Source of the DNA: Chlamydiota bacterium
Lineage (GTDB): Bacteria > Auribacterota > JACPWU01
Length of the DNA stretch: 32,000 bases
Reading direction: 5' to 3'
NCBI GenBank assembly: GCA_016196885.1
Contig: JACPWU010000003.1
Coordinates: forward strand, 30,001-62,000
Shown here piece after piece: positions 4,467-32,000 of the stretch. A model generated the notes under the pieces. The model was not told the DNA's origin. It did not search any database and saw only the letters and a program-made list of their open reading frames with translations. Made by a program: the position numbers and the translations under genes. Positions within the stretch are counted from its first letter, which is position 1. Each line of letters opens with the position of its first letter.

Positions 4467-4645
4467 TTTCACCTGAAAATAGTCTTTAGTCATTCTTATA
4501 CAATGACTCATGATGACTTGTAGTCGCCCGATTTATCGGGCAATGCCCAATGCCACAATGTCATAGACCGCCCCATAAATGGGGCGACTACAAGGGTAAT
4601 TTTCATCCCCCTTTGTGCCGACCTCAGTCGGCATGAATGTTTCAT
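4467..4645. repeat. Left copy (179 bp) of a long inverted repeat; composite of several hairpins
   Basis: Base-by-base comparison shows 4467-4645 is the reverse complement of 7466-7634, with 2 mismatches (4555, 4611) and one 10-bp indel (4594-4603 is extra here). Internal hairpins: agtcatt/aatgact (4488-4508), gcccgat/atcgggc (4526-4541), cgcccca/tggggcg (about 4569-4586), tgccgac/gtcggca (4616-4633). There is a long-range stem gtagtcgcc/ggcgactac (4520-4528 / 4583-4591) and a tandem heptamer caatgcc x2 (4541-4554). Confidence 0.95.
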
Positions 4646-7465: not shown

Positions 7466-7634
7466 ATGAAACATTCATGCCGACTGAGGTCGGCACAAAA
7501 GGGGATGTTGTAGTCGCCCCATTTATGGGGCGGTCTATGACATTGGGGCATTGGGCATTGCCCGATAAATCGGGCGACTACAAGTCATCATGAGTCATTG
7601 TATAAGAATGACTAAAGACTATTTTCAGGTGAAA
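7466..7634. repeat. Right copy (169 bp) of the long inverted repeat
   Basis: Reverse complement of 4467-4645 (see the left copy). The identity breaks exactly at 7465/7466 and 7634/7635. Confidence 0.95.
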
Positions 7635-12928: not shown

Positions 12929-15900
12929 GTGATGAGTATGGATTTATCCTCTGAAACAAATGCTAAAAATTTTAAGGGTGTTTATGCCCTTTTGCCAGGG
13001 TTCTTTTTTTTTCTTTTTCTCTCCTTTTCTTCCCATTCTCTCTTTGCCTCTTTTGTAGATTCCGATTCTGACCGCATGGACGATGCATGGGAAGGTGCGC
13101 ATGGCCTTAATCCAAGCGATGCATCCGATGGAACAGTAGATTCAGATGGGGATGGGATCATGAATGATGAAGAGTATTTTACCAACCACGATCCCCATGC
13201 CCCCGATCCAACTCTGAGTGACTCAGAGTTGGTGGATCTTGCCGCGAGAAAGGCCTTTCTTTATTTCTGGGAGCAGGCGAAGGTTCCAAGCACGGGTGGA
13301 GTGACAGAGCCTATTTTGATTCCAGATCACTCTGATTTTAATGGGGGGAGTCCCGCTACCTATTACAGCATTGCGGCGATTGGATTTGGTTTAGCTGCAA
13401 TGGTTGTGGCCGATGACCGTGACTGGATAGATCATGTTTCTGCGTATAACCGAATTGATGCGACTTTAAAATTTTTTAGGAGTTTACAGACCAGCACAGA
13501 TGATCAGAAGGTCAAGCATGGTTATTTCTATCACTCTTATGATGTGAATGGAATTCGAACGTCTGGGAGTGAACTTTCAACGATGGATCATGCCATTTTT
13601 GTGGCGGGGGCTCTCTTAGCGGGCCAATATTATCGTGGGACTGAAATAAAGGATTTGGCTGACGAAATTTATTCTTCAACCGAGTGGAATTGGGCCTGGG
13701 ATGGGTCTTTTTTATATAGGGGCTGGGTCGAGGATGGCGGCCCTGTGGAAGGCGGAAGTTGGGTGGGAGGTAGCGCGAAATGGGACAGTTATGCCCAAGA
13801 GATTATTCTTCTTAACTTGGCCATTGGAAACCAAGGGGCGTATAACATTCCGCAAGTCGCTTGGTCTAACATTGCCCGACCTTTGGAACAATATGGTTCT
13901 TTTCCTTCTTATATTCATGTGGGGTCTCTTTATGCCCACCAGTATTCCCATCTTTTTTTGGATTTGAAGAGTCGGCCCGATGCCTTGGGCTATGATTATT
14001 TTGAAAATTCAAGAGTGGCCACAGAGGTCAATCGGCAGTTTGCGATAGATTTGAATTTAAAGGATCCTTTGAAATATGAAACTTATGGGGAAAATGTGTG
14101 GGGGCTTTCTGCAGCGAATGCCTCGAAGGGGTACCAATCTTTGGAGCCCATTCTTTCGACAGAGGATGAGGCTGTGATTGAGGCGTACAATGATTCTGGA
14201 ACGGTTGCGCCTTTTGCCCCCCTGGGTTCTTTACCTTTTACTCCAGAAGAGTCTCTCGGGGCATTGAGAGAAATGTATGAGAATCGAAATTCTTTCTTGA
14301 GTGCTCAGACAATTTGGGGACGTCACGGTTTTTTGAATGCATTTAATACCGGCACAGCTTCAGGAGGACAGAAACCCTATTTTAGCACGCAGGTGATAGG
14401 AATTGATTTGGGCCCGATTGTAGGAATGGCGGAAGATTACAGAACGGGTCTTTTGTGGAAATATTTTTTTAGATCGGCGATTGCCGAGTCGGGCATGGCC
14501 AACATGGGGTTCAGTACCGAGCCGGTCGAACCCCATGTTTTAAATTTTGACAGCGGGTCGGATCCCAACGATTTTGGGGGAGATTCGGGGGGGATTGGGG
14601 GGGGCGATGTTTCTTATGTGACGGATACGCCCGATGGATCGGAATTCTCTGCCCAGGTGAGTGGTTCAAATATCGGAGATGGGGCTTTCATGGGGCTTGC
14701 GGGGCATTCCATTCATCCCTGGGATGGATTTTCAATTTGGGTGAGGGCTTTGTCCGAGGGGGGGTCTTTAGAAGTCGGACTCAAAGATACAGATGGAAAT
14801 CAGTGGACGGTGTCGCTTGCAAGTTATCATCCTCAAGGGGCACTCACACAATCTTGGACGCAAGTGAAAATTCCTTTGGAGCCTTTTGTGGAGGCGGGGG
14901 TACGACTCACCCGTTTGGATGAAATCTTTTTTGTGTTTACTTCTAGTGGCGGCGTTATCCAAGTGGACGATGTTGGATTTTTGGAAGATGTATTTTCCCC
15001 GGATTCCCCACAAGATTTTAAGGCTCAATTTGTGACTCCCGATCGAGTCGAACTTTCTTGGCAAGAAAGTCCTTCTAAGGATGTGGTGGGTTATAAAATT
15101 TATCGCAAAAAGAGTTCTGGAAATTTTGAGGAATTAACGGCCAATGAGAATGGCTATGTTTATTTAGGAACTTCTTATACAGATACTGCGATTGATCCCT
15201 CTCAACAATACACCTATCGCGTGATCGCCCTTGACAATTCTCAAGATTCAGATGATTCGGATGATGGCTTGGAAAGTGAGCCAGCTGAAGATCAAGCCTA
15301 TACCTCAGATAAAGATGGGGATGGTTTGGATGATCAGGAGGAGGCAACTTTGGGGACTGATCCGAATAATTCCGACAGCGATGGAGATGGCGTGAGTGAT
15401 GGAGAGGAAGTGAATCAGAATGGGACGAATCCAAAAGACGCGGATACAGATGACGATGGTTTCACCGATGGCCAGGAGGCCTCGACAAATTCTGACCCTA
15501 AAGATCCAGAGAGCCAGCCAACCCAGATCACGATTACAGCGGATAACCGTTATGTCTTGTATGTGAATGGGGTCAAGGTGGGTGAGGATGACAATTGGAG
15601 TACGGTGGAAAAGTATGTTGTAGATTTGAAGCCGGGAGGAAATGTAGCGATTGAGGCGATAGACTCAGGGGGAATCGCAGGTTTGGCAGTGAATATTTCC
15701 AATGGGACTCAAGTGCAGGTTTCGAATTTTATTTGGCAATGTTCGCTTCAAGCTTCTTCAGGATGGGAGACCGAGGGCTTTGATCATTCGAGCTGGGTGG
15801 GGGCCACAGAACATTTTCAGGTGGGAGGAGGACCGTGGGGAAGGATGGACAGTTTCAATTCTAAGACCCGGTGGATTTGGTCATCGGATGCCTTAAAGGA

Positions 15901-17803: not shown

Positions 17804-17949
17804 GATATCTCTTTCTATCATAACCAAATCTCTTCCAATAGGTTAAATTCATTAAAAATCCTTCAAATAAATCATTTCTTTTTTGACCTTTTTCACCTCT
17901 GAAATGTCCTTATTTGTGAGTACTTTAAATCAGGTACTTATAGGCACTT

Positions 17950-20900
17950 ATGATAAATTCTTCACCTAAAAGGACCAGAGGGTTCCACCTCGGGTTGAAG
18001 TGTGTTTCCACACTGACCCTGATGGCCTTCTTTTTTACCTCCGTATGTGAAACTTCCCTTTTTGCGCAAGAAGGGTTGAAAGTTGGAAGTTGGAAGTTGG
18101 AAGGAAAGGAAAATAAATCCCCTCAGGTTTTTTCTTCCAACCTCAAACCTCCCACTTCCAACTTGCTTTCAAGCGTCTCTATTCCCTCCGTCAGAGGAGA
18201 TGTCCTTCAGCGTTTTCAAGGTAAAGACGATCGTTTGGTGATTCAACTTCAAGACGTGCATTGCCATTTCGAGGCGCAGTCTAATTCGGCCAAGATTATC
18301 AAAGGGTTAATGGATGAACATGGATCCCATGGGCTTCACATGGTGGCAGTCGAAGCAGCAGGCGAGCCTGTGGACACTTCTCTTTTGACTTCTTTCCCGG
18401 ATCCCAAACTCCGAAAAATGTTTGCCGATTATCTCATGAAAATCGGAAAAATTTCTGGAGCTGAATATCTTTCAATCATTCAAGACAAGCCCCTTCCCCT
18501 CGAGGGAATCGAGAACATGTGGAATTATTTTCGACATGTTGTGCAGTTTAATCAGGGTCAGGTGGTGAAGGAAAAGGCGGAACCGATTTTAAATAAAATT
18601 CAAAAGGCGATTTTAGAATTGCGTAAAAAAGTTTATTCCGCAGAGATGAGGAAGTTTCTGAATCAGTCTGAGGCTTATGAAAAGGGAGATATGGAGTTGG
18701 GGGAGTATATAAAACAGTTAAAAGTTGAAAGTTCGAAGTTGAAAGAAAAAGATAAAAACTCCTTGTCATCTTCCAACATCCAACTTTCAACATCCAACAT
18801 TCCTTCCTCCTCCAGCTATCCCAACATTTCTCTCATGCTCCAGATGAAGAAACTAGAGGACAAAATAGATCTCAAGCAAGTTGAAAAAGAAAGAGTCAAA
18901 CTTTTAGAAGATTTAAGCCACAAACTCGTCAAAGAAGAGATGGTGGAGCTGATGACGAAGAGTTTGTACTACAGACTCGAGAAGATGGATGCGTGGGAAT
19001 ATTATGAATATTTAAAGACTGTCGTGAGTCGTGAGTCGTTAGGGGTGAGGGGTCAGAATTCAACGTTAGAGAAAACTTATCCTAACCTTATGAAATACAT
19101 CGAAATGACAGAAATATTTCACGAGATCAAGAGTGATGAGCTTTTGAAGGAGTGTGAAAAGATATCGGAGGAAGTACAAGATAAGTTGTTAAAGACCAAA
19201 GAAGAAAAGGCGCTCAGGCAAATCGAAAAAGACTTTATTATTTTGAGAAACTTTTTTGAATTGGAGATGAAGAAGAGCGAGTTTCAGTATTATGTGGAGA
19301 ATAAGGAGAGGGTTTCGGCTGAGAATATAGTGGAAGGCTTAGAGAAGTTGGAGGGTCAAGGGTCAAGGGTCAAGGGTCAGGATAACTCCCCTCGGTCCCC
19401 TCTTAATTTAAGAGGGGAGGAAAAACAAAAACAAGAGAGAGAGCAAGTAGAGAGTTCCTCCCCTATTTTAAAAGCGGGGGAAAAGCAAAGGCAGGTAACG
19501 TTCTCTCCCCTTAGTTTAAGGGGAGATGGAGGGGTTACAAATGACGACATCACCTTCCTTGACTCTCATCTCAAATCCCTCGAACAATTCTATCGCTACT
19601 CAGACAATCGTGAAGAGGCGATGGTCCAGAACACGCTCCGGAAAATGAAAGAGAACAAGAGTCCGATTGCGATTTTGTATGCAGGAGGATTTCACACTGA
19701 TGGACTGAGCAAGCGTTTGGAGCAAGAAGGAGTGTCTTACGTCGTAGTTGCTCCGCGCATCACTCAATTCAAACTTAAGACCCCGTATTTATCCATTATC
19801 AAGAATGAGCCTTCGAAATTAGAGAAAATGTTGATGGATTTGAATAAAAAAGAAGGGTCCAACCTGGCTGCGATTTTGATTAGCATGAAGCCGGAGGAAT
19901 TAGAAAAAATTATTTCAGATTTTCAGCTTGCTGACACTGACCTCGTCACTGTTTGGATTCGCGATACGATTCGTTTGCTTCGTACTGATAGAACCATGGC
20001 TCTTTTGATTTTAAAAACCTTGATGCTAAAAGATCAGTTAAAAAATTTAAGTGCCTTGGCTCATGTGGGTGACAAGATTCAGGATTTGGAGAAAAGCTGG
20101 TTAAATGAATTCAAGAGGCTTTCGGGAGAAAATAATTTTAATTCAGAAGAAGTTGAAGTCATTGAATTTAAATTGGATCGAGATGTTGTGGTGAATGGCA
20201 ATACAATCACCCTTCAAGTTTTGATCAGTGGCAAACAATCTTTGACCGTGACTCTAAATGTTCATGAAGGCATCGAACAAATGATGAATCGTATCGAAGA
20301 TGCTTTTAAGCCTGTGGCTCTAATACCTCCGGCTTCAGGAGAAAAGGGGGAAGTAAAAAAGTCAGGAGTGCCGCCATGGGTAAAAGCAGTATTTTCTTTT
20401 TTTCTTGTTTTTTTAACTAAATCGCTTTCTGCGGCTCCGAGTGTTTTTGTCAAAGCCCCTCTTTTTGATCCAGGAATGGATTTGGTTGCCTTGCACAGTC
20501 ATTTTGCGATTTGGGGTTCGATGTGGACGTATGCAGCGGTCATTGCGATCCCGCTCGGATTGGTTTTTATGTTTTGGGCCTTGGGCAAGATTAAGTCTCG
20601 ATGGGTGGAGGCAAGAATAAGAGCGATTGTGGAAGAGGTGGAGCAACCGCAACTTCTTTCAGAAACGATTTCTTCAGGAACAGTTTCTTCCCGAGTTCAT
20701 CTTTTTGATTTTGAATTCGCTTCAGATATTCCTCAATCTGAAAGAGAGCGTGCCTCAGCATTTTTTCAGGATGTTCTAGGTGATGAGCTTCAAATGTGGG
20801 AAAGAAATTTGCTCCGTCAATATCCAGTTTTAGATTCAAGGGAATTGAGATTTCATGTTCGATTTGTAAATGAAACTCCATCTGAAAAATGGGCTCTGAA

Positions 20901-23900
20901 AATGGAAGAGGGAGGTCTGGTTGTTAATTTAGGGGCCTTTCTTTCTGCTAAGGGCGCAAAAGCAAATTTAAGGTCTTATTTTGAAAGACTGAAGGTGGAG
21001 CGTGAAAGAGATTTGTCTGGGCGCAGAGATTTGATTGCACTCCCTCAGCAAGTTTTGAAGGGAGACGGTAGACTTTTTGTTGATTATTCGAGCGGGATTC
21101 GAAAGGTGTTGGTCAGCCAAGAAAACGCAGGTTCTTTATGGAGATTGGCAGGGCAGATCAAGGGACATCCGCAAAGAGTCGTACCTTTGTTGGATCAATT
21201 GGAATCTCAGGCGGTGACAGCTGTTCTTTATGATAGAGAGGGTCAGCCCTTTTCGCTTTTGATCTATGTGCCTGGTTTTACAGATCAGGTCTACGACTGT
21301 CCCTTGATTCGGGACCGGACAAGATATGATGAACTTCTTTCGGTTTATCGTTCGCTCTCTTCTATTCCTTCAGTGGAAATGGTCAGGAGGAATGATGTTT
21401 CTGTAGAAGATGTGAAAGATCTTTTAGGGGACAGAGATCATGTTGAGTTTTTTGTGAGATGGGCTTCAAAGGCGGCAGAGAAGAAGCGTCCTTCTTTCTG
21501 GAATGTTTTGCGTGCTTTGGCATTGTGGATGACAAAGGGAGAGCGAGAACGATTTGATGAGATGCTGGAAAAATACTTTGGCACTTCCTGGTTGGGTCGG
21601 TTGATGGCAATGGGTTTTTGTCTCTTCATAGGGACTGCGTTCAGCGCCATCATCATTGGTTGTCTTGGTTCTCCGACGAAAGCTGATGCAGCTTATTTTG
21701 ATGTTTCGTCTCATGGGGGAACTCTTTCTGCTGAGGTTCAAAAAGCACCTTCTCAGAAAGGGGGAGACGTAGAAAGTGAGGGAGACATTCAGGCGGATAT
21801 CGAAAGATTAGAAAAGGGAATACAAGCTTTAAACGAGGAAAATGCTTCTGCGACCTCAGGCTCTGGCGCAAAAGAAGAGAAAGCACCTCCCGTAGAAGAA
21901 GTAAAAAAGACTGAAGGGGGAAAGAAGAAGGCCGAACCTGAATGGACGAAGAAAAAGAGAGAGGAGTATGAAAGAGATTTGGCAAAAGAGAGAGAGGCTT
22001 TTAAGAAAAAGGCAGGTGCACCTCATTCAGAAAATCTTACGCTTCAGCCTACAGAAAATCTTACTGACTTAAAAGGAAAAATACAGGCGATAGAAGAACA
22101 AAAAAGACTTGAAGAGTTAACCATTGATACCCTCGAATATTTAAGTGCCCAGCTTCGAGTGGAAACCCTGAATCAACAAGCCGCAAGTCTTGAGCAGGAA
22201 ATCGTGGCCTTAAAAGATCAGTTGAATCAGGAAGAAAAACTTTCTCCGACTGATAAAGAGAGTCTTCAGAAAAGACTTCATGGAAAAGAAGAAAAGTTTC
22301 AGACATGTCAACAGTCTCTTCAGGAATTAAACGCTGAGATAAATGCCATGAGGCATGATTCAAAAATCGAAGAGGGTTTTAAAGAAAAATCAGATGAAGA
22401 ATTGGAGAAAGCCATGAAAGGGCATCTTAAGGAATATTTTATTCTTCATGTCAGATTACAACGTTATCAAGCAATGATGCAAGATCTCTTGGGTACAAAA
22501 AAGAGAGATTCCGGTGTTCAAGCGCAATCCAGTTCCTCTGCCAAAGTTCAATTAATTCCTTCTTCTCAAGATTTAAAACCTGCTCAGGGTTCTTCCCCCC
22601 AGAGTTTGCGTGAGTCTATTAAATATTTTATTGAGAGAGGGGTGAAACATTTTGATGAGATGAGTCAGGATGATGATGCGCTGGCCCAGTATCTTTATGA
22701 TCAATATCGTTTGAAGGGCAGGGGTGAGTTAAAAGGAGAAGTTAGGATTGGGTGGCAGAATTATTATTCTTATGGGACTGCTGGATCTGATTCCTATGAA
22801 GCTCAATCGGAAGAGGATGTGGTGGCGACTTTGTTTTTCGACAAGACGATTGATAATGCAAAAAAAGAGCAAATGAAATCAGCCTTTTGGCGTTTAGAAG
22901 CTCAACATCGTATGCAGCTTCAGGGACAATATGACGCCTGGGCTGGGATTTATCAATTGACGGGAGAAGTGCTGAAGGCAAAAGCCAATATTGAAGTTCA
23001 GAAAAAATTTGAGACAGAGGCTAAATCTTTGGTGGATCAAATGCAGGAGCGTTTCTTGAAACCCCGCGAGATGGATGAGGCTCAAGGGGGGGACCCCAGG
23101 ATTTTTCAAACGCGATACTTGAATCGTTGGCATGAAGCTCAGGCCAGCCGTATTCAGGCTGAAGAAGCTTATGAGACAGCTTGCTTAAGACTAAAAGGGC
23201 TTTCCGGAATGGCTGTTGATGATGAGATTCAAATACCCGGCTCTTTGGAGGAGTGGAGTGTATTTGATATTGAATCTCTTTTTAAAGAGATTTCTGAGGA
23301 ATTAAAAAATGAGGGAGTGAATGCAAAGTTTATGGATCAAAGCGTTCAAATTAGCACTGCTTTGGTGAATGAGGCTGCCTTTTGGAAAAAGGAATTGGAC
23401 GAGAATGACGTTTCGCTTGAGATGAAATTGGGAGCAGGCTTACAGGGGCGATGGAACATGGATACTTCGGGTGGTTTTGAATGGCCGTTTAATCCCTTTG
23501 TTTCTGGAGAATTTGAGTTAAAAATTTCTCTCCTCGATTGTGTTGCAAAGGCTCAAGGAAGGGTGGGTGAAGTCATTAATCAAATGGCGGTTCTGAGGAT
23601 GGATGAGGCAAAAAAAGGTTTGTACTTTAAGTATTTAAATGCCCAGGCTGAGCTGGAGGCAGCCCAGAGAATTTTGAAGGTTTTAGAGAAGGTTTTAGAG
23701 GTTGAGTTGAAAGAAATGAGTGTGGAGCCTCCGGTGCTGCAAAGTGATTTGGAGCTTGAGTGGGACCGGATTGGCGTGAGTCGGAATTTGGAGATCGCTC
23801 GCAATGAGGCTTTGGCAAGAATTGCCAGTGCCCGACTCAAAATGACGGGGTACCGCGCTCAGATACCTCCTGAAGAGTTGAAAAAAGTAGACGCGCTCGT

Positions 23901-26900
23901 TGATTTTGATCAATTGTTCGGCCCTGATTTTGGGGCTTTGAATGTTTCAGCTTTTCTCAAAGCTTTGGCCACAGAATGGGTGGGTGGTGAGGTGACGGAT
24001 TTGACTTCTGTTCCGTGGGAAAAAATTTTCCCATCCGACATGGCTGAACGGATGAAAGGAATAAAGGATTATGATCATGATTTAAGAATAGACGCCAATC
24101 AAGATCTCCTGAAAAAAATCATAGAAAAAATGAATGAATTGATTCAACAGGAGGATTTTCTTTTTCGTCATCCCTCTATAGGTTCTTTAAGTTTCGATGG
24201 TTCTGCTATGCAATTTTTAAATATTCTGATTCAGGATGGAGTGCTGAATGCTCAGGACTACCATCCAAAACAAGATTTGACTCCAGAAGAAAAATTCCAA
24301 ATTTATACTTTGAATCGTTTGGTTTTAGAAGAGAAATATCCTGAAGTTTTTAAAGTTCAACTTTCTTTTCCTATCGCAGCCCAGAAGGCTGTTCAAGGTT
24401 CGGGCGCTTTAAGGGGACAAGAGTTGGAGGAACAAGCTCATACCGCACGAGGGAAAGTAGCTTTTAACAGTCGGATTCCGGTTGTTCAGGGAGGGCTGAA
24501 TGTCAATTTTAATCTGGGAACTTATGGGGATCCGATTGGATACCGTTTTGATCAGGGCCAACCGTTCATTGGGGACAATCCTCACGCCCATTTGACTTTG
24601 ACGGGGGGCACCTCTCTTTGGTTGGCGGCGACTGGACCTCTCCCTATCTTTGGAAAAACGTCCGAACAAAGGGCTCATGTGAAGGCTGAAAAGGGATGGA
24701 TTCAAGCGCGTGAAGAGGAAATTACAAATCAATTGATGGAGGGTTTGTATAACGTCTTTAAAAATGTAGCATTGGCTCAATCGGATCTTCAGAGACTTCA
24801 AAAAGAACTTGCAGAATTAAGGGCGTTTAAAGAATTGCTTGAGAGAAAACACACAGAGGTGCCTTTGACTGAAGAGCAATACCTTTCTCAAGCTCAAAAG
24901 GTTTGGCTCAGAATCATGGAAAAGAGAATTGAAATTAACCGCATGGAAAGCACCCTTGAAGGTTATCGGATAGATGTTTTGAGTCGAATGGGTGATGAAC
25001 ATTTAAAAGGTCAATTTCTAGATTGGCCGAAAGAGCCGTCTGAGCAGAGGGCCAGAATGATTCAGATGGGGAAAGAGGTTGCTTCTGGAATAATTCCTCA
25101 ATCTAATTTGAATTTGGAAACCGCACAGGTGAATGTAGCGAGAGAGGTTTTGGGCAATACCAGTGCTGCTCCTACAATCACTTGGACTGTCGGCGCAGCA
25201 GCAGGACCCTCTTTCCCTGAACTTTTCAGAGCTGAGGATCAAAATGAGGCCTGGAGGGTGCTTCCGTTTCTTGCGGGTTGGGTGGGTATTCATGGGACAT
25301 TGCCGCAGCCTGGCCTGAAAAAAGCTCAAGTGAATGCAGCACAACAAAAAGTTTTTGAGGAAGAGGGAGAACTGGAACGGTTAAAACAGGAACAAACAGC
25401 GGAGGAGCTTTTGGACTGGAGAGAGTATACCCGTTTAGAAGTTCAGGTAGATGAAATATCTGAATTGTTAGCGGAGGCAAAATCCCTCTATCAGGATATT
25501 CAGGAAGATTTAAAAATTCCGGGACAGTGGGGGAAGCAGTATCAGCCTGAGAACCTTTTGAGGGTGATGAATTTAATTTCGATGGTTGAAGAGGAATGGA
25601 CTCGTGTGGAGTGGTCCCTCAATGGTTTTAAGCATGTGAATTTAAGAAAGTTGGGTGTGGATGAAAGTAATTTCGAAGAGAGAAAAGCTCAAGCTCTTGC
25701 AAGGCTTGAAAAGGGTGAGGTGCCTCAGACAGGAGTTGCATCTAGTTCTTCGCAAAATCTTGCTCAGGCGCGGTCTCAAACGACTCTCAATCCTCAAGGC
25801 CCGCATTCTTTGATTCAAGTAGCCCAAAGAGCCATTCTCTACCACCCCAATGTGGAAAGCGCTTATTTAAAGGTTCAGGCGCTTGAGGCGAAGAAGAAAG
25901 AGGCTCAAGCCCATAAGTGGCCAGCAGTGACTTTATCTGGGGGTGCGAGGAGTGATTCTCCCAAGCTGGCGAATGAACGCTATCCCTCTATTTATAATAG
26001 CGGATATGCTGGATATGAGCCGGGGATTGAAGGACAAAAACCAGAATGGCCGCCAAAAGTTCAGGCGAGTGGTTCGGCGACAGGCAATGTTCGTTTTTGG
26101 GATGATTCAGAGGTCAGAGAAGTAGAGGCAGAATTAGGGGCGGCTCGAGCAGACTTAATGCAAGCTGTTTTAAATGCTTTTTATGAAAGCGTTCTTCTTT
26201 ACTATGATCTTGTTTTTGAAATGGAAAAAGCCAAAGCTTACTCCCAAGATTCAGAACATAAATATGCCTTGGCGCGGTCCATGTGGTTGAGAGAAAGACT
26301 TTTGTTGGCCTCCCAGATTGATACCCATGAAGTGGGTATTGAAGCCTTAACTTCTCTTTTAAGGCTTTCACCCTCCGGAATGGGGCAGGCTCAAAATCGT
26401 GCCAGAAGTTTGTTGATGATTGATTTTGATTTGGTCCCGTCAGAAGGCCTGCCTGATATTTCTTCTTTGGTGGCTCAAATGCATTCGGTTCTTTCTACGG
26501 GAACAGGCAGTACGGAAATTGAAAATCTTTTAAAAGAATTATGTGCTCGAGATCCAAAGTCGGTTATTTTTCAGGCCTTGGGAGAGAAGGAAAGAGCGGC
26601 CGGGCAGGCGGTTCGTCGCGATCGTCTGGGAACCTGGCAATTGGTTTTTGATTCCCCGGATTGGCGAAAAGGTCAGGTGGAAGCGATGCTGACGTGGACA
26701 AAAGTTTTTTTGGATGGCGGAAAGAAAGAATCAGCGATTCAGTTGCATAAAAGATTGGAAAAGAAGGCAAAAAGAGAGGCAAAAGAATATGAGAGACAAC
26801 AACTTCTCGATGTGGCGCAGGCTTTCAAGGAAGTTCTTTCTCAAGCAGGGCTTTTAGAGGTTGAGCTAGAAAAAATTAAAGTTTCTGAGAAGCAAGTTGA

Positions 26901-29900
26901 GCTTTTAATGGAGCGTTTAGATGTGCCTTCCAACGATCAAGCAAATCCTCATGATCTTAAAACACACGCGTCCGATGTGCAGGACTCTTTTAGCAAATTG
27001 CTTGAGGCCTGGACGATTTTAAGAGATGTTCAAGTGAGTTCTCAAACCGCCGTGGCTGAGATGGAAAGAAGGTTTTGGACACTCAAGAAAACCCTTGCCC
27101 TGGCCCAGGCCCATGGTTCTCCAGATCCTGAACGCAAGAGATATCTGGATGAGGTACAAGCCTTTCTCGATTCAACGCATGTGGCTGAAGTATCTGCAAC
27201 TGCGCCTGTACAGGTCGAGCCTGCGACAAAGCTTTCGACAGAATTAAGAGAGGGATTGAAAGCGCAAAAGGCTTTGGATAAAAAGTTAGAGGAAGGGACA
27301 GAGGAGCCGAGAGTTCCTGTCTCCAGACCCGTCGAGCTTCCCTCTCGTGTGGGAGTTCAAAGGAATCAAGTTCCTGCTTTTAAGAGTCTGGTTCCAGAAC
27401 CGCCTTTGGAATATCAAGCTCGTGACGAGACGTTGCCGGAAGCCAAAAAAGAGAACCATCGTGCAGAGCCAAAACCAGAGGAGCCTCCGAAACCCAATGT
27501 GGGAGAGGAGGAACATACGTTTTTGAATCCGGAGGGCTGGGTGTGGAGGTCTATGCGTTGGTGTAGGGGATGGAAAATAGGACGGTCTATTTTAAATTGG
27601 TTAGGAGAAGATGAGGTTGTAGCTACTTTGGAACGTCTTCATCTTCTTGAAAATGGACAACAATTGCTGCGTCGTCAAAGAGAAATTGAGGTGGATGATG
27701 CCAGTCGTATTAAAGAATTGAAAAAAAAGGGAACCCAGGCTCAGGAGAGAAAAGCAAGGGAAGAACTTCGTGAAATACGAACTCGACTTGAAGAAGAACG
27801 TGAACAGATTTTTGAAGAGCACTATGGGCTTTTTCTTCACACGGTGGATTACACTCAGGCTCATCATGACAAGCTCGAGGAGAGAACGAAAACAGAGCCC
27901 TATATTCTTTGGCGGTCTTTTATTGATCTTCCCATGTTTCCAACTTACCCGGATCCGATTGAGTTGAAAAATGTGCCCTGGATTGTTCAGAAGATGAGGA
28001 ATGCCATGTCTGCAGGTCATTTTTCAGGGATTGATCCTCGTATTATTACGGAAAACGGTTTGAAATGGGTTTTCAACACGTATGGTCAAATTCGGGGTCG
28101 ATCTCCCCAGGACATGAATGATTATTTTGATGCGTGGACTCTTTTGGGATCACATATAGATCAGAAATTGGCTTCTTTGAGAAAGGAGTTGGGTTTAGAA
28201 AATTCAGATGAAAGGGAATGGAATGATTGGCTGAATGGGACTTTTTTCCCGAATGGTTTTGCCTCGACTTTTTCGGGTTTACTCGGGATTGAGCGTTCTT
28301 CAGCTCTGACAGATCAGGAACTTGGAAATCCTCATGCAGGTATCAGGCGCTTGGGCTATTTCAGTGCGTTATCTTCTTTGGCTGTGAAGATGCGACACGA
28401 AAATCCAAAAGATTCCATGGAGACGATGATAGGAAAAATGGTTGCCCCCGGAGGCGATTTAGATCACTCGTTTGACTGGATGAAGACCCGGGCTCTTCAT
28501 TTTGGTCAGGGGACGCTTTCTCTTCAAAGCGACGAGAAATTTATCAAGGATGATCTTCATTATCAGGAAAGTATTTTTGTGGATGAATTCTCTCAATTGA
28601 AAGAACGAAAATTCGCCCAGGCGGTCATTGATCATACCGATGCGGCAAGAATTCTATATTCCGTGATGTATAGCTCTGACTTTGGAATTGTGGATAAGAA
28701 TGGGAGCGGTTTGGAACATGCAGACCTTGAGACTTTAAGACGTAAGCTCTCCATGTCAGATGACTATGAGAGTCAAAGCTTTGTTTTGTCTATTGCCAGC
28801 GTTGCCATGGCACATCATATTTCTCCTGAAAAAATGCTTGATTTAGCCGGTAAGGCCCGCCGTGTGATGGGACCCGAAATTGCAAATATTTATGCGTCTC
28901 GCCTGACGCGTGAGGCCTTTTTGACAGAACCTTATTTTGCTCAGGATGCTGGTAAATTAAGACATCTTGTTCGAGCTCAAAAATTTCATAAGGAGAAGGC
29001 TCAGGCTTTGCTTGCTCAAGGCGATACTGCAATGGCTGCAGAAAATGAGAAAATGGCCAAGGAATATCGAGAACGAGCACAGATAGAAGAGCAGGCTCTC
29101 AAGAAACGTTTGGTGCGTTCCCTTCTCATGTATTGGACAAACTGGGCTGTTGAATTTTTGCTCGAGCGTGAAAAAGATCCCAAGGTTGATCCCATTGAAG
29201 AGTTAAAGAAATTTTTTAGATTGTTACCCCAATATCAGGCAGTGATGAGCAATGATCCGATGGGGCTTTATCCCGATCGGTCTTTTGACATCATGAACCC
29301 CAGGGATTCTGGAGTTCTGGTTTATTGGACGAAAATAGGTGCCATTCGGGGAATGGAGGCCCAGGAGCTTCGAACCCTTCACCATCGCATGGTGTCCATT
29401 GGAAGCATGGATGTTTTTCGGCGTGTATTGAAGCTTTTTGACATTCATGCGGGTAACGAGTTAGATCCAGAAAATAGAGATCAGATGGGAGCGGCCATGA
29501 TGTATGCCGTTAGAGCAAATAAATGGAATTGGGGAGATTCAGACGTGATTCGCTACTTAGAAAATGTAGAGTGGATTTTGAAGAATCAAGAGATGAAGCT
29601 CACCATGATTGAACAGTGGTATTTGGGGGGGGAGGTAGAGAAGGCAGAACGAATGGCTGCCTTTTTTTGGAAGGACATGTCTTCGTTGGAAGAAGTTTTG
29701 ACCGCACGAGCTGGGCGACCCGATCAGGAGTGGCGTGTTTCAAATGATCAATTACGAATGCTTTGGACGGCGGGTCATGAAAAGGCTCAGGACATTGATC
29801 TCAAATATGGAAAAGACTATAAGAAGGCCTTGCTTTATTCAATGGTTAGTTTGGTGGATGAATTTATGGTCCGGTGGGGGGTTGATCAAGTTTCCTTGGT

Positions 29901-32000
29901 TCAATTGGAGCAAGGCGTCAATCGATTTCTGGATCGTGTAAAGACTGAATGGAAAAAGGCAGAGATTTCCTCCGATAAACTTTTCTGGCAGAGAATGAAT
30001 CGCCAGGATGTGGCGTTGGCTTTTGTCATCACATTGAGACGGCAGGGATTGTCCACAGAAAATGCCTTTGCGCATCTTCAAGATCTTCAACGAGCCGTGG
30101 AACGGAGTCAATCTAGTTTAAACTATTTAGAATCATTGCTAGGTTCTGAGACTTCAAATCAGGTACGTGAAGCGGTTGAACGAGGAGATCGACAGGCTTT
30201 ACTTCTCTTGAAAAGAGAGATTATGGATGGATCGAAGGTTTGTATTGATCCTAATGTCGATCGATATTTAATATCCCTTCTGCAGTTTATTTCAAGTGAG
30301 GGTGCTGTCCATATGGACCTCATGCTAGATAAGATGGCCGAAGTGCTCAAGGCCCATCGTAAATCTCATCTTTCTTTACAGACCGATCTTGTCCCAGGTC
30401 TTCAGATTTGGCAGGCAGAAATGTCGGTTTATGGCTGGGGGGAACTTGAGAAGGTTTTTGGGAAAGACATCCTTCAACAAATTCAAGAGGCTGTGAGGCT
30501 TGACAAGCCAGAAGATGTTGCGAAAATTACACTTTCTCCTGACATTCGTCACCGGGCCGAAGAGGCCATGGTGGGATCCAGCCGAGGAAGGCCGGTGGAG
30601 CAATATATTCGATATGTCCTTCTGATTTTAGAAATCGAGAAGGCTCCCTTGACACTCCCCTTTCATGAAGTGACTTTTTTTGGAGAAGATTTTTTTAAGC
30701 GAGGCGCCTCTCCTACTTTCATTTTGGATTATTTTAAGGCCAGAACTTACCTAAGATCCAGTTATTCTCTTTATCATCGTGCCGCGGGCAATTTTGAAAG
30801 TTTGGAGCCGTTTATTGAGGAAGTGGATCGCGAGAATAAAACGATCATGGGTTCACAGAAAGAGAGAAGGCTTTTTGTCCAACCTCTAACCCCCCCCGAG
30901 AAATTGTCACCGGGGGAAGAGGGGTCCTATCTTTATCGCTTCGAAATGGGACTCGATTCCTATTTTGACATGGGTAATCATGATATTCAGATGTCGGCCT
31001 TGATTGTTCGCGGCGAACGAGAGATGTTATGGAAATTTGAAGAAATGAGGGTGAAGCATATTCCTGAGCTTAGGGAACAGTTGGCTGAGGCAAGAGAGCG
31101 CGGAGATGAAAAATTAATCGAGCAACTCGAAAAGGCTTTAGAGAAATGGAAAGAGGCTCGGATCGTGCCGTTTACTTATCGGGAAGTAAAAGAATTTCTC
31201 GAAGCAATTAAAAAGGGGGAAATGGATAAGCATGAGATTGATCTATTTTTTGAAACCGCTCTTTATTTTCAAACCAAACTTTTGGATTCGGGTCTCGTGA
31301 CGCTGGACTACTTTAATGGTGTGTCCTATTTAGTGAATCATTTTTGGAACGAACCCGGCCTTTTTGAGTGGCTGATGCAGTATCGTACGGAAACTAAAAT
31401 TGTTGAATTGTGGACCCAAGAGCCTGACAAAAAGGATTTGGGGCCGGAGGGAAACCGCTGGAAAATCTATTCACTTTTGGGACGCATGATTGCTCAAGGA
31501 ACTCCGTCTAGCGAATTGGTTGAGCGCCTGGTGAATCTTGATTTAGAACTTTCAGGGAAAGGGGTTCCCAATGATCGGTCAAAAACTCGGATGAAAGAGG
31601 GCATTGAAGCATTTCAAATTTTGAGGGATGTGATGATAGAAATGTTGGGGCCGAGCCTTCATAATCAAGAAAAGAAGACGGCCTTTCGCCGTTTGATTGA
31701 GGAATTGCTTGAGAGCCCATCTTCTTTAGGTCCATCTTTAGAAAATTGGCTTTGGGGTGTTCTGGAAAGCCGTATTGGAATCACGGAGGCTCAAGATTGG
31801 AAATTAAATAAAGAACGACTCTCTCAAGTTAGAAAGGATGATGAAAAGACAAAGGCGGATACGGCTGATCGTGCAAATGCCATTATGAGAGAACGTCCCA
31901 ACCTTTTAATGAAGACAGATCTTAAAAAATCTGATTTGCGTCTTTTAGGAATGGATCCAAAAACGGCGGATGAGTTCTGGCAATATTTAACTCAATCAGG
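17950..32000 (+). CDS. 5' part (4683 codons, still open at the window end) of a giant secreted/envelope protein
   Basis: Hand translation of the frame starting at ATG 17950 (in-frame TAG at 17941-17943 just upstream) gives no stop up to base 31998. The track contains no ORF in this frame across these 14 kb, and fragments of 60 aa or more would be listed if stops existed. It contains only short antisense ORFs. N-terminus MINSSPKRTRGFHLGLKCVSTLTLMAFFFTSVCETSLFA|QE is signal-peptide-like. No clear SD was seen. Confidence 0.9.
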   Translation, partial: MINSSPKRTRGFHLGLKCVSTLTLMAFFFTSVCETSLFAQEGLKVGSWKLEGKENKSPQVFSSNLKPPTSNLLSSVSIPSVRGDVLQRFQGKDDRLVIQLQDVHCHFEAQSNSAKIIKGLMDEHGSHGLHMVAVEAAGEPVDTSLLTSFPDPKLRKMFADYLMKIGKISGAEYLSIIQDKPLPLEGIENMWNYFRHVVQFNQGQVVKEKAEPILNKIQKAILELRKKVYSAEMRKFLNQSEAYEKGDMELGEYIKQLKVESSKLKEKDKNSLSSSNIQLSTSNIPSSSSYPNISLMLQMKKLEDKIDLKQVEKERVKLLEDLSHKLVKEEMVELMTKSLYYRLEKMDAWEYYEYLKTVVSRESLGVRGQNSTLEKTYPNLMKYIEMTEIFHEIKSDELLKECEKISEEVQDKLLKTKEEKALRQIEKDFIILRNFFELEMKKSEFQYYVENKERVSAENIVEGLEKLEGQGSRVKGQDNSPRSPLNLRGEEKQKQEREQVESSSPILKAGEKQRQVTFSPLSLRGDGGVTNDDITFLDSHLKSLEQFYRYSDNREEAMVQNTLRKMKENKSPIAILYAGGFHTDGLSKRLEQEGVSYVVVAPRITQFKLKTPYLSIIKNEPSKLEKMLMDLNKKEGSNLAAILISMKPEELEKIISDFQLADTDLVTVWIRDTIRLLRTDRTMALLILKTLMLKDQLKNLSALAHVGDKIQDLEKSWLNEFKRLSGENNFNSEEVEVIEFKLDRDVVVNGNTITLQVLISGKQSLTVTLNVHEGIEQMMNRIEDAFKPVALIPPASGEKGEVKKSGVPPWVKAVFSFFLVFLTKSLSAAPSVFVKAPLFDPGMDLVALHSHFAIWGSMWTYAAVIAIPLGLVFMFWALGKIKSRWVEARIRAIVEEVEQPQLLSETISSGTVSSRVHLFDFEFASDIPQSERERASAFFQDVLGDELQMWERNLLRQYPVLDSRELRFHVRFVNETPSEKWALKMEEGGLVVNLGAFLSAKGAKANLRSYFERLKVERERDLSGRRDLIALPQQVLKGDGRLFVDYSSGIRKVLVSQENAGSLWRLAGQIKGHPQRVVPLLDQLESQAVTAVLYDREGQPFSLLIYVPGFTDQVYDCPLIRDRTRYDELLSVYRSLSSIPSVEMVRRNDVSVEDVKDLLGDRDHVEFFVRWASKAAEKKRPSFWNVLRALALWMTKGERERFDEMLEKYFGTSWLGRLMAMGFCLFIGTAFSAIIIGCLGSPTKADAAYFDVSSHGGTLSAEVQKAPSQKGGDVESEGDIQADIERLEKGIQALNEENASATSGSGAKEEKAPPVEEVKKTEGGKKKAEPEWTKKKREEYERDLAKEREAFKKKAGAPHSENLTLQPTENLTDLKGKIQAIEEQKRLEELTIDTLEYLSAQLRVETLNQQAASLEQEIVALKDQLNQEEKLSPTDKESLQKRLHGKEEKFQTCQQSLQELNAEINAMRHDSKIEEGFKEKSDEELEKAMKGHLKEYFILHVRLQRYQAMMQDLLGTKKRDSGVQAQSSSSAKVQLIPSSQDLKPAQGSSPQSLRESIKYFIERGVKHFDEMSQDDDALAQYLYDQYRLKGRGELKGEVRIGWQNYYSYGTAGSDSYEAQSEEDVVATLFFDKTIDNAKKEQMKSAFWRLEAQHRMQLQGQYDAWAGIYQLTGEVLKAKANIEVQKKFETEAKSLVDQMQERFLKPREMDEAQGGDPRIFQTRYLNRWHEAQASRIQAEEAYETACLRLKGLSGMAVDDEIQIPGSLEEWSVFDIESLFKEISEELKNEGVNAKFMDQSVQISTALVNEAAFWKKELDENDVSLEMKLGAGLQGRWNMDTSGGFEWPFNPFVSGEFELKISLLDCVAKAQGRVGEVINQMAVLRMDEAKKGLYFKYLNAQAELEAAQRILKVLEKVLEVELKEMSVEPPVLQSDLELEWDRIGVSRNLEIARNEALARIASARLKMTGYRAQIPPEELKKVDALVDFDQLFGPDFGALNVSAFLKALATEWVGGEVTDLTSVPWEKIFPSDMAERMKGIKDYDHDLRIDANQDLLKKIIEKMNELIQQEDFLFRHPSIGSLSFDGSAMQFLNILIQDGVLNAQDYHPKQDLTPEEKFQIYTLNRLVLEEKYPEVFKVQLSFPIAAQKAVQGSGALRGQELEEQAHTARGKVAFNSRIPVVQGGLNVNFNLGTYGDPIGYRFDQGQPFIGDNPHAHLTLTGGTSLWLAATGPLPIFGKTSEQRAHVKAEKGWIQAREEEITNQLMEGLYNVFKNVALAQSDLQRLQKELAELRAFKELLERKHTEVPLTEEQYLSQAQKVWLRIMEKRIEINRMESTLEGYRIDVLSRMGDEHLKGQFLDWPKEPSEQRARMIQMGKEVASGIIPQSNLNLETAQVNVAREVLGNTSAAPTITWTVGAAAGPSFPELFRAEDQNEAWRVLPFLAGWVGIHGTLPQPGLKKAQVNAAQQKVFEEEGELERLKQEQTAEELLDWREYTRLEVQVDEISELLAEAKSLYQDIQEDLKIPGQWGKQYQPENLLRVMNLISMVEEEWTRVEWSLNGFKHVNLRKLGVDESNFEERKAQALARLEKGEVPQTGVASSSSQNLAQARSQTTLNPQGPHSLIQVAQRAILYHPNVESAYLKVQALEAKKKEAQAHKWPAVTLSGGARSDSPKLANERYPSIYNSGYAGYEPGIEGQKPEWPPKVQASGSATGNVRFWDDSEVREVEAELGAARADLMQAVLNAFYESVLLYYDLVFEMEKAKAYSQDSEHKYALARSMWLRERLLLASQIDTHEVGIEALTSLLRLSPSGMGQAQNRARSLLMIDFDLVPSEGLPDISSLVAQMHSVLSTGTGSTEIENLLKELCARDPKSVIFQALGEKERAAGQAVRRDRLGTWQLVFDSPDWRKGQVEAMLTWTKVFLDGGKKESAIQLHKRLEKKAKREAKEYERQQLLDVAQAFKEVLSQAGLLEVELEKIKVSEKQVELLMERLDVPSNDQANPHDLKTHASDVQDSFSKLLEAWTILRDVQVSSQTAVAEMERRFWTLKKTLALAQAHGSPDPERKRYLDEVQAFLDSTHVAEVSATAPVQVEPATKLSTELREGLKAQKALDKKLEEGTEEPRVPVSRPVELPSRVGVQRNQVPAFKSLVPEPPLEYQARDETLPEAKKENHRAEPKPEEPPKPNVGEEEHTFLNPEGWVWRSMRWCRGWKIGRSILNWLGEDEVVATLERLHLLENGQQLLRRQREIEVDDASRIKELKKKGTQAQERKAREELREIRTRLEEEREQIFEEHYGLFLHTVDYTQAHHDKLEERTKTEPYILWRSFIDLPMFPTYPDPIELKNVPWIVQKMRNAMSAGHFSGIDPRIITENGLKWVFNTYGQIRGRSPQDMNDYFDAWTLLGSHIDQKLASLRKELGLENSDEREWNDWLNGTFFPNGFASTFSGLLGIERSSALTDQELGNPHAGIRRLGYFSALSSLAVKMRHENPKDSMETMIGKMVAPGGDLDHSFDWMKTRALHFGQGTLSLQSDEKFIKDDLHYQESIFVDEFSQLKERKFAQAVIDHTDAARILYSVMYSSDFGIVDKNGSGLEHADLETLRRKLSMSDDYESQSFVLSIASVAMAHHISPEKMLDLAGKARRVMGPEIANIYASRLTREAFLTEPYFAQDAGKLRHLVRAQKFHKEKAQALLAQGDTAMAAENEKMAKEYRERAQIEEQALKKRLVRSLLMYWTNWAVEFLLEREKDPKVDPIEELKKFFRLLPQYQAVMSNDPMGLYPDRSFDIMNPRDSGVLVYWTKIGAIRGMEAQELRTLHHRMVSIGSMDVFRRVLKLFDIHAGNELDPENRDQMGAAMMYAVRANKWNWGDSDVIRYLENVEWILKNQEMKLTMIEQWYLGGEVEKAERMAAFFWKDMSSLEEVLTARAGRPDQEWRVSNDQLRMLWTAGHEKAQDIDLKYGKDYKKALLYSMVSLVDEFMVRWGVDQVSLVQLEQGVNRFLDRVKTEWKKAEISSDKLFWQRMNRQDVALAFVITLRRQGLSTENAFAHLQDLQRAVERSQSSLNYLESLLGSETSNQVREAVERGDRQALLLLKREIMDGSKVCIDPNVDRYLISLLQFISSEGAVHMDLMLDKMAEVLKAHRKSHLSLQTDLVPGLQIWQAEMSVYGWGELEKVFGKDILQQIQEAVRLDKPEDVAKITLSPDIRHRAEEAMVGSSRGRPVEQYIRYVLLILEIEKAPLTLPFHEVTFFGEDFFKRGASPTFILDYFKARTYLRSSYSLYHRAAGNFESLEPFIEEVDRENKTIMGSQKERRLFVQPLTPPEKLSPGEEGSYLYRFEMGLDSYFDMGNHDIQMSALIVRGEREMLWKFEEMRVKHIPELREQLAEARERGDEKLIEQLEKALEKWKEARIVPFTYREVKEFLEAIKKGEMDKHEIDLFFETALYFQTKLLDSGLVTLDYFNGVSYLVNHFWNEPGLFEWLMQYRTETKIVELWTQEPDKKDLGPEGNRWKIYSLLGRMIAQGTPSSELVERLVNLDLELSGKGVPNDRSKTRMKEGIEAFQILRDVMIEMLGPSLHNQEKKTAFRRLIEELLESPSSLGPSLENWLWGVLESRIGITEAQDWKLNKERLSQVRKDDEKTKADTADRANAIMRERPNLLMKTDLKKSDLRLLGMDPKTADEFWQYLTQS
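18075..18162. repeat. Inverted pair of 4-unit heptamer arrays (gttgaaa, then gttggaa x3 / ttccaac ctcaaac ctcccac ttccaac) in frame inside the giant ORF
   Basis: Arrays at 18075-18102 and 18135-18162 are separated by 32 nt. Translated as LKVGSWKLEGKENKSPQVFSSNLKPPTSN. Confidence 0.85.
18717..18798. repeat. Second inverted pair of 4-unit heptamer arrays (gttaaaa gttgaaa gttcgaa gttgaaa / ttccaac atccaac tttcaac atccaac) in frame in the giant ORF
   Basis: Arrays at 18717-18744 and 18771-18798 are separated by 26 nt. Translated as LKVESSKLKEKDKNSLSSSNIQLSTSN. Confidence 0.85.
19021..19055. repeat. Five tandem heptamers (gtcgtga x2, gtcgtta, ggggtga, ggggtca) in frame in the giant ORF
   Basis: Read directly. 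Translated as VVSRESLGVRGQ. Confidence 0.85.
19353..19380. repeat. Heptamer array gggtcaa x3 plus gggtcag in frame in the giant ORF
   Basis: Read directly. Translated as (E)GQGSRVKGQ. Confidence 0.9.
19397..19525. repeat. Three short hairpin units of one family inside the giant ORF
   Basis: cccctcttaatttaagagggg (19397-19417) and ctccccttagtttaaggggag (19505-19525) are palindromic. cctcccctattttaaaagcggggg (about 19458-19481) is an imperfect palindrome. Translated as SPLNLRGE, SSPILKAGE and SPLSLRGD. Confidence 0.75.
22603..27120 (+). other. Six tandem TolC / outer-membrane-factor (OEP)-like repeats, equal to three TolC-protomer equivalents in one chain (domain of the giant ORF)
   Basis: The best unit is 25800-27120. 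It reads LIQVAQRAILYHPNVESAYLKVQALEAKKKEAQAHKWPAVTLSGG ... GNVRFWDDSEVREVEAELGAARADLMQAVLNAFYESVLLYYDLV. It then reads LLKELCARDPKSVIFQALGEKERAAGQAVRRDRLGTWQLVF ... MLTWTKVFLDGGKKESAIQLHKRLEKKAKREAKEYERQQLLDVAQAF. Four earlier units show the same helix, strand, strand, long-helix, helix pattern, starting near 22603, 23272, 24375 and 25020. Confidence 0.5.

What the first reader, a model, noticed from the sequence alone, without database searches (positions are those of the whole stretch)
22603..27120. Six tandem TolC-like repeats in one polypeptide: a possible covalent single-chain TolC pseudo-trimer
I read six consecutive units with the OEP/TolC repeat pattern within the giant ORF. The pattern is a helix ending in a Pro-anchored short strand, a second amphipathic strand ending in a Gly/Asp turn, a ~60-aa continuous helix and a return helix.

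- R1 (~22603-23215): strands EVRIGWQNYYSYG and VVATLFFDKTIDN.
- R2 (~23272-23860): VSLEMKLGAGLQGRW and FVSGEFELKISLLD.
- R3 (~24375-24995): GGLNVNFNLGTYG and HLTLTGGTSLWLAATG.
- R4 (~25020-25660): TITWTVGAAAG and WRVLPFLAGWVGIHG.
- R5 (~25800-26440): WPAVTLSGGARSD and ATGNVRFWDDS.
- R6 (~26520-27120): TWQLVFDSPDW and VEAMLTWTKVFLDGG.

Canonical TolC is a homotrimer in which each protomer has two such repeats and contributes 4 strands to a 12-stranded barrel. Six repeats would give 12 strands, so one chain could in principle form a complete channel-tunnel. Linkers separate the three protomer equivalents at ~23860-24375 and at ~25660-25800 (the latter low complexity). To my knowledge such a fused architecture, embedded in a protein of more than 4600 aa, has not been described.
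Basis: partly seen in the sequence, partly recalled or inferred. Interest (0 to 1): 0.88.

Follow-up and report, generated by a model that had tools for sequence, protein, structure and literature searches.

The report
Three TolC-like protomers fused in one chain
A 9,014-residue protein of an uncultured chlamydia carries six consecutive TolC-type repeats, where normal TolC has two per subunit, so one chain could perhaps build an outer-membrane channel that normally needs three subunits; the fold itself could not be confirmed.

Summary
Each of the six units at the stated coordinates gives a Pfam OEP (PF02321) match, in the same register. None of 61 natural decoy windows, 6 reversed units or the inter-unit linker does. 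Support is uneven. The third pair (R5+R6) scores E=2e-13. The second pair (R3+R4) scores E=1.6e-5 and passes Pfam's cut-off. The first pair (R1+R2) is weak alone (E=0.29) and rests on register, decoys and anatomy. All six units share the same layout, with long helices of 59-69 aa like TolC H3/H7. The single-chain 12-stranded barrel is an inference from 3 x 2 repeats and was not shown. AlphaFold2 failed without an alignment (pLDDT 39). With an OEP alignment it gave only a moderate model (pLDDT 65), with no strands formed. Foldseek's top hits were all OEP channels, but with TM about 0.3. The host is a Chlamydiota MAG. The region has no detectable homologue among 1.84 billion representative proteins. 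I rate it a new variant of a known kind, with the function open.

The parts
17950..18069 (+). N-terminal Sec-type signal-like segment of the giant ORF. The public gene call starts at nt 17995.
   Evidence: Reading of the translation; hydropathy peak at aa 25; gene call. Inference only.
20380..20600 (+). Hydrophobic segments centred on aa 822 and 874, candidate inner-membrane helices.
   Evidence: Kyte-Doolittle peaks of 1.56 and 2.05. Topology is inferred.
21600..21675 (+). Strongest hydrophobic segment (aa ~1220-1240), ending in the lipobox-like motif IIIGC. It is a possible internal signal-anchor that would place everything downstream in the periplasm.
   Evidence: The motif was read by eye; processing was not tested.
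21800..22600 (+). Charged coiled-coil-like spacer (aa ~1290-1550) between the membrane anchor and the first OEP unit.
   Evidence: Translation. Only weak coiled-coil family hits and no OEP hit.
22603..23208 (+). R1 (aa 1554-1755). S1 EVRIGWQNYYSYG, S2 VVATLFFDKTID, long helix 67 aa, return helix 37 aa.
   Evidence: Pfam OEP E=0.28, profile positions 65-144; anatomy.
23263..23853 (+). R2 (aa 1774-1970). S1 DVSLEMKLGAGLQGRW, S2 FVSGEFELKISLLD, long helix 59 aa, return helix 40 aa.
   Evidence: Pfam OEP E=0.69. S2 has a period-2 hydrophobic moment in the 99th percentile of the protein.
23854..24363 (+). Linker domain of ~170 aa between protomer equivalents 1 and 2.
   Evidence: No OEP hit. Function unknown.
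24364..24993 (+). R3 (aa 2141-2350). Long helix 66 aa.
   Evidence: Pfam OEP E=0.0038, profile positions 6-146. R3+R4 together E=1.6e-5.
25039..25656 (+). R4 (aa 2366-2571). Long helix 66 aa.
   Evidence: Pfam OEP E=0.025, profile positions 16-145.
25657..25803 (+). Linker of 49 aa, partly low-complexity, between protomer equivalents 2 and 3.
   Evidence: Translation.
25804..26379 (+). R5 (aa 2621-2812). S1-S2 loop of 39 aa, long helix 69 aa, short kinked return helix.
   Evidence: Pfam OEP E=6.9e-6; anatomy.
26512..27117 (+). R6 (aa 2857-3058). S1-S2 loop of 3 aa, long helix 67 aa.
   Evidence: Pfam OEP E=1.7e-7. R5+R6 together: Pfam OEP E=2e-13 and TIGR01844 TolC E=2.4e-5.
27118..27540 (+). 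Pro/Glu/Lys-rich extended linker of ~140 aa directly after the last OEP unit.
   Evidence: Translation.
27541..31998 (+). Helix-rich region of ~1,490 aa with no recognisable family. The ORF continues for ~4,350 aa beyond the window.
   Evidence: No Pfam or PDB hits; product length 9014 aa.

Best explanation
Residues ~1554-3058 of a 9,014-aa envelope protein of a Chlamydiota MAG are three very divergent tandem copies of a complete TolC/OEP protomer, six structural repeats in all. Most likely they pack around a pseudo-threefold axis into one channel-tunnel in the bacterial outer membrane: 12 beta strands plus a 12-helix periplasmic barrel of TolC length, made from a single chain. Upstream hydrophobic segments would tether the chain to the inner membrane. 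The channel would then act as the outer-membrane anchor, and possibly the exit duct, for the very large C-terminal part. Shown: homology of the six units to OEP, and their common anatomy. Inferred: closure into one barrel, membrane topology, and any transport role.
For: All six units hit Pfam OEP in register. P2 scores 25.3 bits and P3 51 bits, both above the cut-off of 22. Adding P1 to P2 raises the score to 31.1 bits with a third matched stretch. Decoys are clean: 0/6 reversed units and 0/61 natural windows. TIGR01844 TolC matches P3. Long helices measure 67, 59, 66, 66, 69 and 67 aa, close to the ~70 residues I count for H3/H7 in the E. coli TolC sequence. Hairpin segments are rich in G/P/aromatic residues (G+P 0.07-0.28, against 0.01-0.05 in the helices), and 6 of 12 strands lie above the 86th percentile for period-2 amphipathicity. 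The number of repeats is exactly 3 x 2, and the linkers (170 and 49 aa) lie where TolC's termini meet at the equatorial domain (established TolC structure, own knowledge). Positive charges flank the TM segments such that aa >1240 would be periplasmic (inference). Foldseek's best PDB matches for the P1 model are all OEP-family channels.
Against: R1 and R2 are individually not significant (E=0.28 and 0.69). The reverse search, a profile of the six units against PDB, found nothing significant; VceC appeared only at E=1.8. In-house OEP profiles recovered only R5, R3 and R6 above decoys. Single-sequence AF2 gave pLDDT 39, also on the positive control P3. AF2 with an OEP alignment gave pLDDT 65, hairpins below 50 and no strands, and Foldseek TM was only ~0.3 with E>=0.03. 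That alignment also biases the model towards OEP. No homologues exist to test covariation. Half of the 12 putative strands have unremarkable amphipathicity. Nothing tests whether the three pairs assemble within one chain.
Confidence: 0.5

Rival explanations
1. The six repeats are real, but the giant protein trimerises. The three P1 copies, three P2 copies and three P3 copies each form a canonical homotrimeric TolC-like channel, giving three channels per complex.
For: Every characterised OEP is a homotrimer (review PMC8277102). Linkers of 49 and 170 aa are long enough to bridge neighbouring barrels (inference).
Against: P1, P2 and P3 share no detectable pairwise similarity, and their loops differ widely (3 to 39 aa). 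That fits more naturally with three non-equivalent positions in one barrel. This arrangement would also need three 9,014-aa chains held in register.
Confidence: 0.2
2. Only R3-R6 (two protomer equivalents) are true OEP repeats, and R1-R2 are an unrelated helical region. The chain then supplies 8 strands and needs a partner or a different stoichiometry.
For: P1 alone scores E=0.29, 11.4 bits, with one matched stretch. In-house profiles rank R1 and R2 among decoys.
Against: R1 and R2 each hit OEP specifically and in register, while 0 of 67 decoys do. Their element lengths match R3-R6. R2 S2 has the strongest beta amphipathicity of all 12 strands.
Confidence: 0.15
3. The repeats are decayed OEP relics that no longer form a membrane barrel and serve only as a long helical stalk or spacer in a surface or secreted giant protein.
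For: Divergence is extreme, the protein is an orphan, and AF2 formed no strands.
Against: The hairpin segments, the loop-flanking D/G turns and the uniform helix lengths are kept in all six units. That conservation is not expected without constraint on the fold.
Confidence: 0.15

Closest known systems
TolC / OprM / CusC outer membrane factors (Pfam OEP PF02321; TIGR01844 TolC family)
   Same: The same structural repeat: up-helix, beta hairpin, ~67-aa down-helix, return helix. The profile matches are in register, and the pairs of repeats are of protomer size (~435 aa).
   Different: Known members carry two repeats per chain and act as homotrimers of ~450-500 aa. Here six repeats sit in one chain inside a 9,014-aa protein, with no adjacent adaptor or pump genes in the window. 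Sequence divergence is extreme.
Bucl8 of Burkholderia (TolC-like protein with a C-terminal collagen-like extension; PMC8277102)
   Same: An OEP module followed by a C-terminal extension that is presented beyond the channel.
   Different: Bucl8 is still a two-repeat protomer that trimerises. Its extension is short compared with the >5,900 aa here.
Inverse autotransporters (type Ve secretion; intimin/invasin), own knowledge
   Same: An N-terminal outer-membrane barrel is followed by a large C-terminal passenger. Here a ~140-aa Pro-rich linker directly follows the barrel module.
   Different: The barrel fold is unrelated (a 12-stranded monomeric beta barrel without an alpha tunnel). Passage of the passenger through the channel is pure speculation here.

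Membership tests
OEP / TolC family (PF02321) | Significant match to the family profile | tested here: met
   P3: 51 bits, E=2e-13. P2: 25.3 bits, E=1.6e-5, against a cut-off of 22. P1 falls below the cut-off (11.4 bits).
OEP / TolC family (PF02321) | Repeat anatomy: beta hairpin followed by a ~67-residue helix and a return helix, two repeats per protomer | tested here: met
   Long helices of 59-69 aa and return helices of 36-54 aa (R5 shorter and kinked) in all six units. AF2 secondary structure places 65-68-aa helices at the same positions.
OEP / TolC family (PF02321) | Four transmembrane strands per protomer forming a 12-stranded barrel | tested here: inconclusive
   The hairpin segments have non-helical composition, and half of the strands show strong period-2 amphipathicity. 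AF2 modelled these segments at pLDDT <50 without strands.
OEP / TolC family (PF02321) | Three-dimensional fold superposable on solved OMFs | tested here: inconclusive
   The Foldseek top hits are OprJ/N, SilC, TolC, MtrE, OprM, VceC and CusC, but with E 0.03-0.5 and TM ~0.3. The model was built from an OEP alignment.
OEP / TolC family (PF02321) | Homotrimer of two-repeat protomers | tested here: not met
   Six repeats lie in one chain. Oligomeric state cannot be tested with these tools.
Tripartite efflux / type I secretion system | Partner adaptor (MFP) and inner-membrane pump genes nearby | tested here: not met
   No such families were found among the window's ORFs. DNA downstream of the gene was not available.

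The most novel reading that the evidence does not exclude
One polypeptide spans the whole chlamydial envelope. It is anchored in the inner membrane and forms a complete single-chain TolC-type channel in the outer membrane. It then threads its own ~5,900-aa C-terminal part through that channel via the Pro-rich linker. This would be a TolC-based self-export ('autotransporter-like') route.
Probability: 0.1. Interest if true: 0.92.

Novelty: new variant of a known kind. Interest (0 to 1): 0.72.

Why it matters
A natural single-chain TolC would show that the trimeric channel-tunnel can be encoded and folded as one asymmetric polypeptide. That bears on how BAM assembles oligomeric barrels and on how the OEP fold evolved by duplication. 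It would also offer a scaffold for engineering non-symmetric channels. In addition, it gives the first functional foothold in a 9,014-aa 'dark' protein of an uncultured chlamydia.

Tried and rejected
- Searches for homologues of the region all found nothing: word-indexed search, exhaustive phmmer on 1.84e9 representatives, and genome and metagenome contig scans.
- phmmer against PDB found nothing.
- Pairwise BLAST among the units showed no similarity. TolC's own two halves give only E=0.02.
- hhalign of single protomers against a 3-sequence OEP alignment had no power.
- In-house HMMs built from 14-22 proteobacterial OEPs recovered only R5, R3 and R6.
- A profile of the six units against PDB gave nothing significant.
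- A homologue search seeded with E. coli TolC/CusC/MdtP returned only near-identical enterobacterial TolCs.
- Single-sequence AF2 was uninformative.
- The rest of the gene could not be retrieved.
- An Omnitrophota origin, which I first guessed, is rejected: the neighbouring proteins are deposited as Chlamydiota.
Full report
**The gene and its source**

The window holds a frame-1 reading frame open from nt 17944 to the window end, 4685 aa. Exact look-ups of neighbouring small proteins place the window on contig JACOUD010000054.1 of assembly GCA_016178005.1. The source names these proteins 'Chlamydiae/Chlamydiota bacterium' MAG. On that contig the gene is called from window nt 17995 with a product of 9014 aa and no Pfam hit on record. 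The window therefore shows about the first half. The downstream half could not be retrieved.

**The observation**

Scanned as separate pieces, each of the six claimed units matches Pfam OEP (PF02321):

| Unit | E-value |
|---|---|
| R1 | 0.28 |
| R2 | 0.69 |
| R3 | 0.0038 |
| R4 | 0.025 |
| R5 | 6.9e-6 |
| R6 | 1.7e-7 |

The 160-aa linker gives no match. The matched profile ranges end at position ~138-146 in five of the six units, and extrapolating R5's match (which ends at 131) puts it in the same register. That position coincides with the P/G-containing tip turn read from the sequence.

As protomer-sized pieces the scores are as follows:

| Piece | E-value | Bits | Matched stretches |
|---|---|---|---|
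| P3 (R5+R6) | 2e-13 | 51 | 2 |
| P2 (R3+R4) | 1.6e-5 | 25.3 | 2 |
| P1 (R1+R2) | 0.29 | 11.4 | 1 |
| P1 + linker + P2 | 2.6e-7 | 31.1 | 3 |

Pfam's curated cut-off is 22 bits, so P3 and P2 pass and P1 does not. NCBIfam TIGR01844 (TolC family) matches P3 at 2.4e-5.

**Controls**

E-values near 0.3-0.7 are at noise level for 'any family', so I tested specificity.
- None of the six reversed units hits OEP at E<=10.
- None of eight other pieces of the giant protein hits OEP at E<=1.
- Among 67 windows of ~220 aa taken from all large ORFs of the window, exactly six members match OEP at E<=1, namely the six units.

As a set, the six repeats are well supported. R1 and R2 individually remain weak.

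**Anatomy**

Each unit has four elements: an up-helix of ~40 aa, a non-helical hairpin segment rich in G/P/aromatic residues, a long helix, and a return helix.
- The long helices are 67, 59, 66, 66, 69 and 67 aa.
- The return helices are 36-54 aa; in R5 the return helix is short and kinked.
- The S1-S2 loops are 14, 14, 20, 15, 39 and 3 aa.
- Six of the twelve putative strands lie above the 86th percentile of period-2 hydrophobic moment for this protein. The others are unremarkable.
- The units share no pairwise BLAST similarity, so the triplication is ancient.

**Structure prediction**

Single-sequence AF2 of P2+P3 failed, with pLDDT 39 even on the positive control P3. Only its secondary structure is usable. 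It places a single 65-aa helix in R3 and long but broken helices in R4-R6 at the expected places.

No homologues of the region exist. I therefore aligned P1 with P2, P3 and 124 ordinary OEPs (A6) and predicted P1 from that alignment.
- Mean pLDDT was 65 and pTM 0.48.
- Helices scored 70-87, including helices of 67 and 68 aa.
- The hairpin regions scored below 50, and no strands formed.

Foldseek against PDB returned OEP channels as nearly all top hits (OprJ/N, SilC, TolC, MtrE, OprM, VceC, CusC). However, E was 0.03-0.5 and TM about 0.3. This result is weak, and the alignment biases it towards OEP. I count it as consistent with the claim, not as proof.

**Interpretation**

Six OEP repeats equal three protomer equivalents. 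Joined by linkers at the point where TolC's termini meet, they could close one 12-stranded barrel. That remains an inference. A trimer of chains making three separate channels is not excluded.

The surrounding sequence contains:
- a Sec-like signal;
- hydrophobic segments at aa ~822, ~874 and ~1229, the last ending in the lipobox-like motif IIIGC;
- a charged spacer;
- a ~140-aa Pro-rich linker after R6.

This suggests a chain anchored in the inner membrane whose OEP module lies in the periplasm and outer membrane. No adaptor or pump genes are present in the window. The remaining ~3,200 aa visible here match nothing in Pfam or PDB.

**Novelty**

A comprehensive review of outer membrane factors describes only trimeric two-repeat proteins. 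Its oddest case is Bucl8, which has a C-terminal extension. Four literature searches found no natural single-chain form. I could not query domain-architecture databases, so precedent among unannotated sequences cannot be excluded.

Noticed in passing
window 4467-4645 and 7466-7634: A ~179-nt inverted repeat (98-99% complementary) brackets a ~2.8-kb block of small toxin-antitoxin-type genes (PemK-like, PIN, a HEPN/nucleotidyltransferase pair; the second PIN_3 gene overlaps the right arm). It looks like a mobile or invertible cassette.
   Followed up: partly
window 14586-14814: The window carries 229 bp that are absent from the public contig JACOUD010000054.1. With them the glycoamylase/fn3/TSP3/PA14 gene is one 1624-aa ORF; without them it is called as two genes (566 + 996 aa). 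This is either an assembly difference or a population variant.
   Followed up: partly
window 2-4435: This is the C-terminal end of another giant protein (6016 aa on the public contig). It has a P-loop NTPase region, a weak low-molecular-weight phosphatase match and, upstream of the window, an intein. Two giant genes thus lie within 14 kb of each other.
   Followed up: no
window 21600-21675 (aa ~1220-1240): An internal hydrophobic helix ends in a lipobox-like IIIGC motif about 310 aa before the first OEP unit. This recalls the N-terminal lipidation of NodT-type OEPs and raises the possibility of internal processing.
   Followed up: no
whole giant ORF (17944-31998): The 9014-aa product is listed as a called gene on the public contig. 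Yet neither protein search found it, not even as a self-match, so very long proteins may be missing from those libraries.
   Followed up: no
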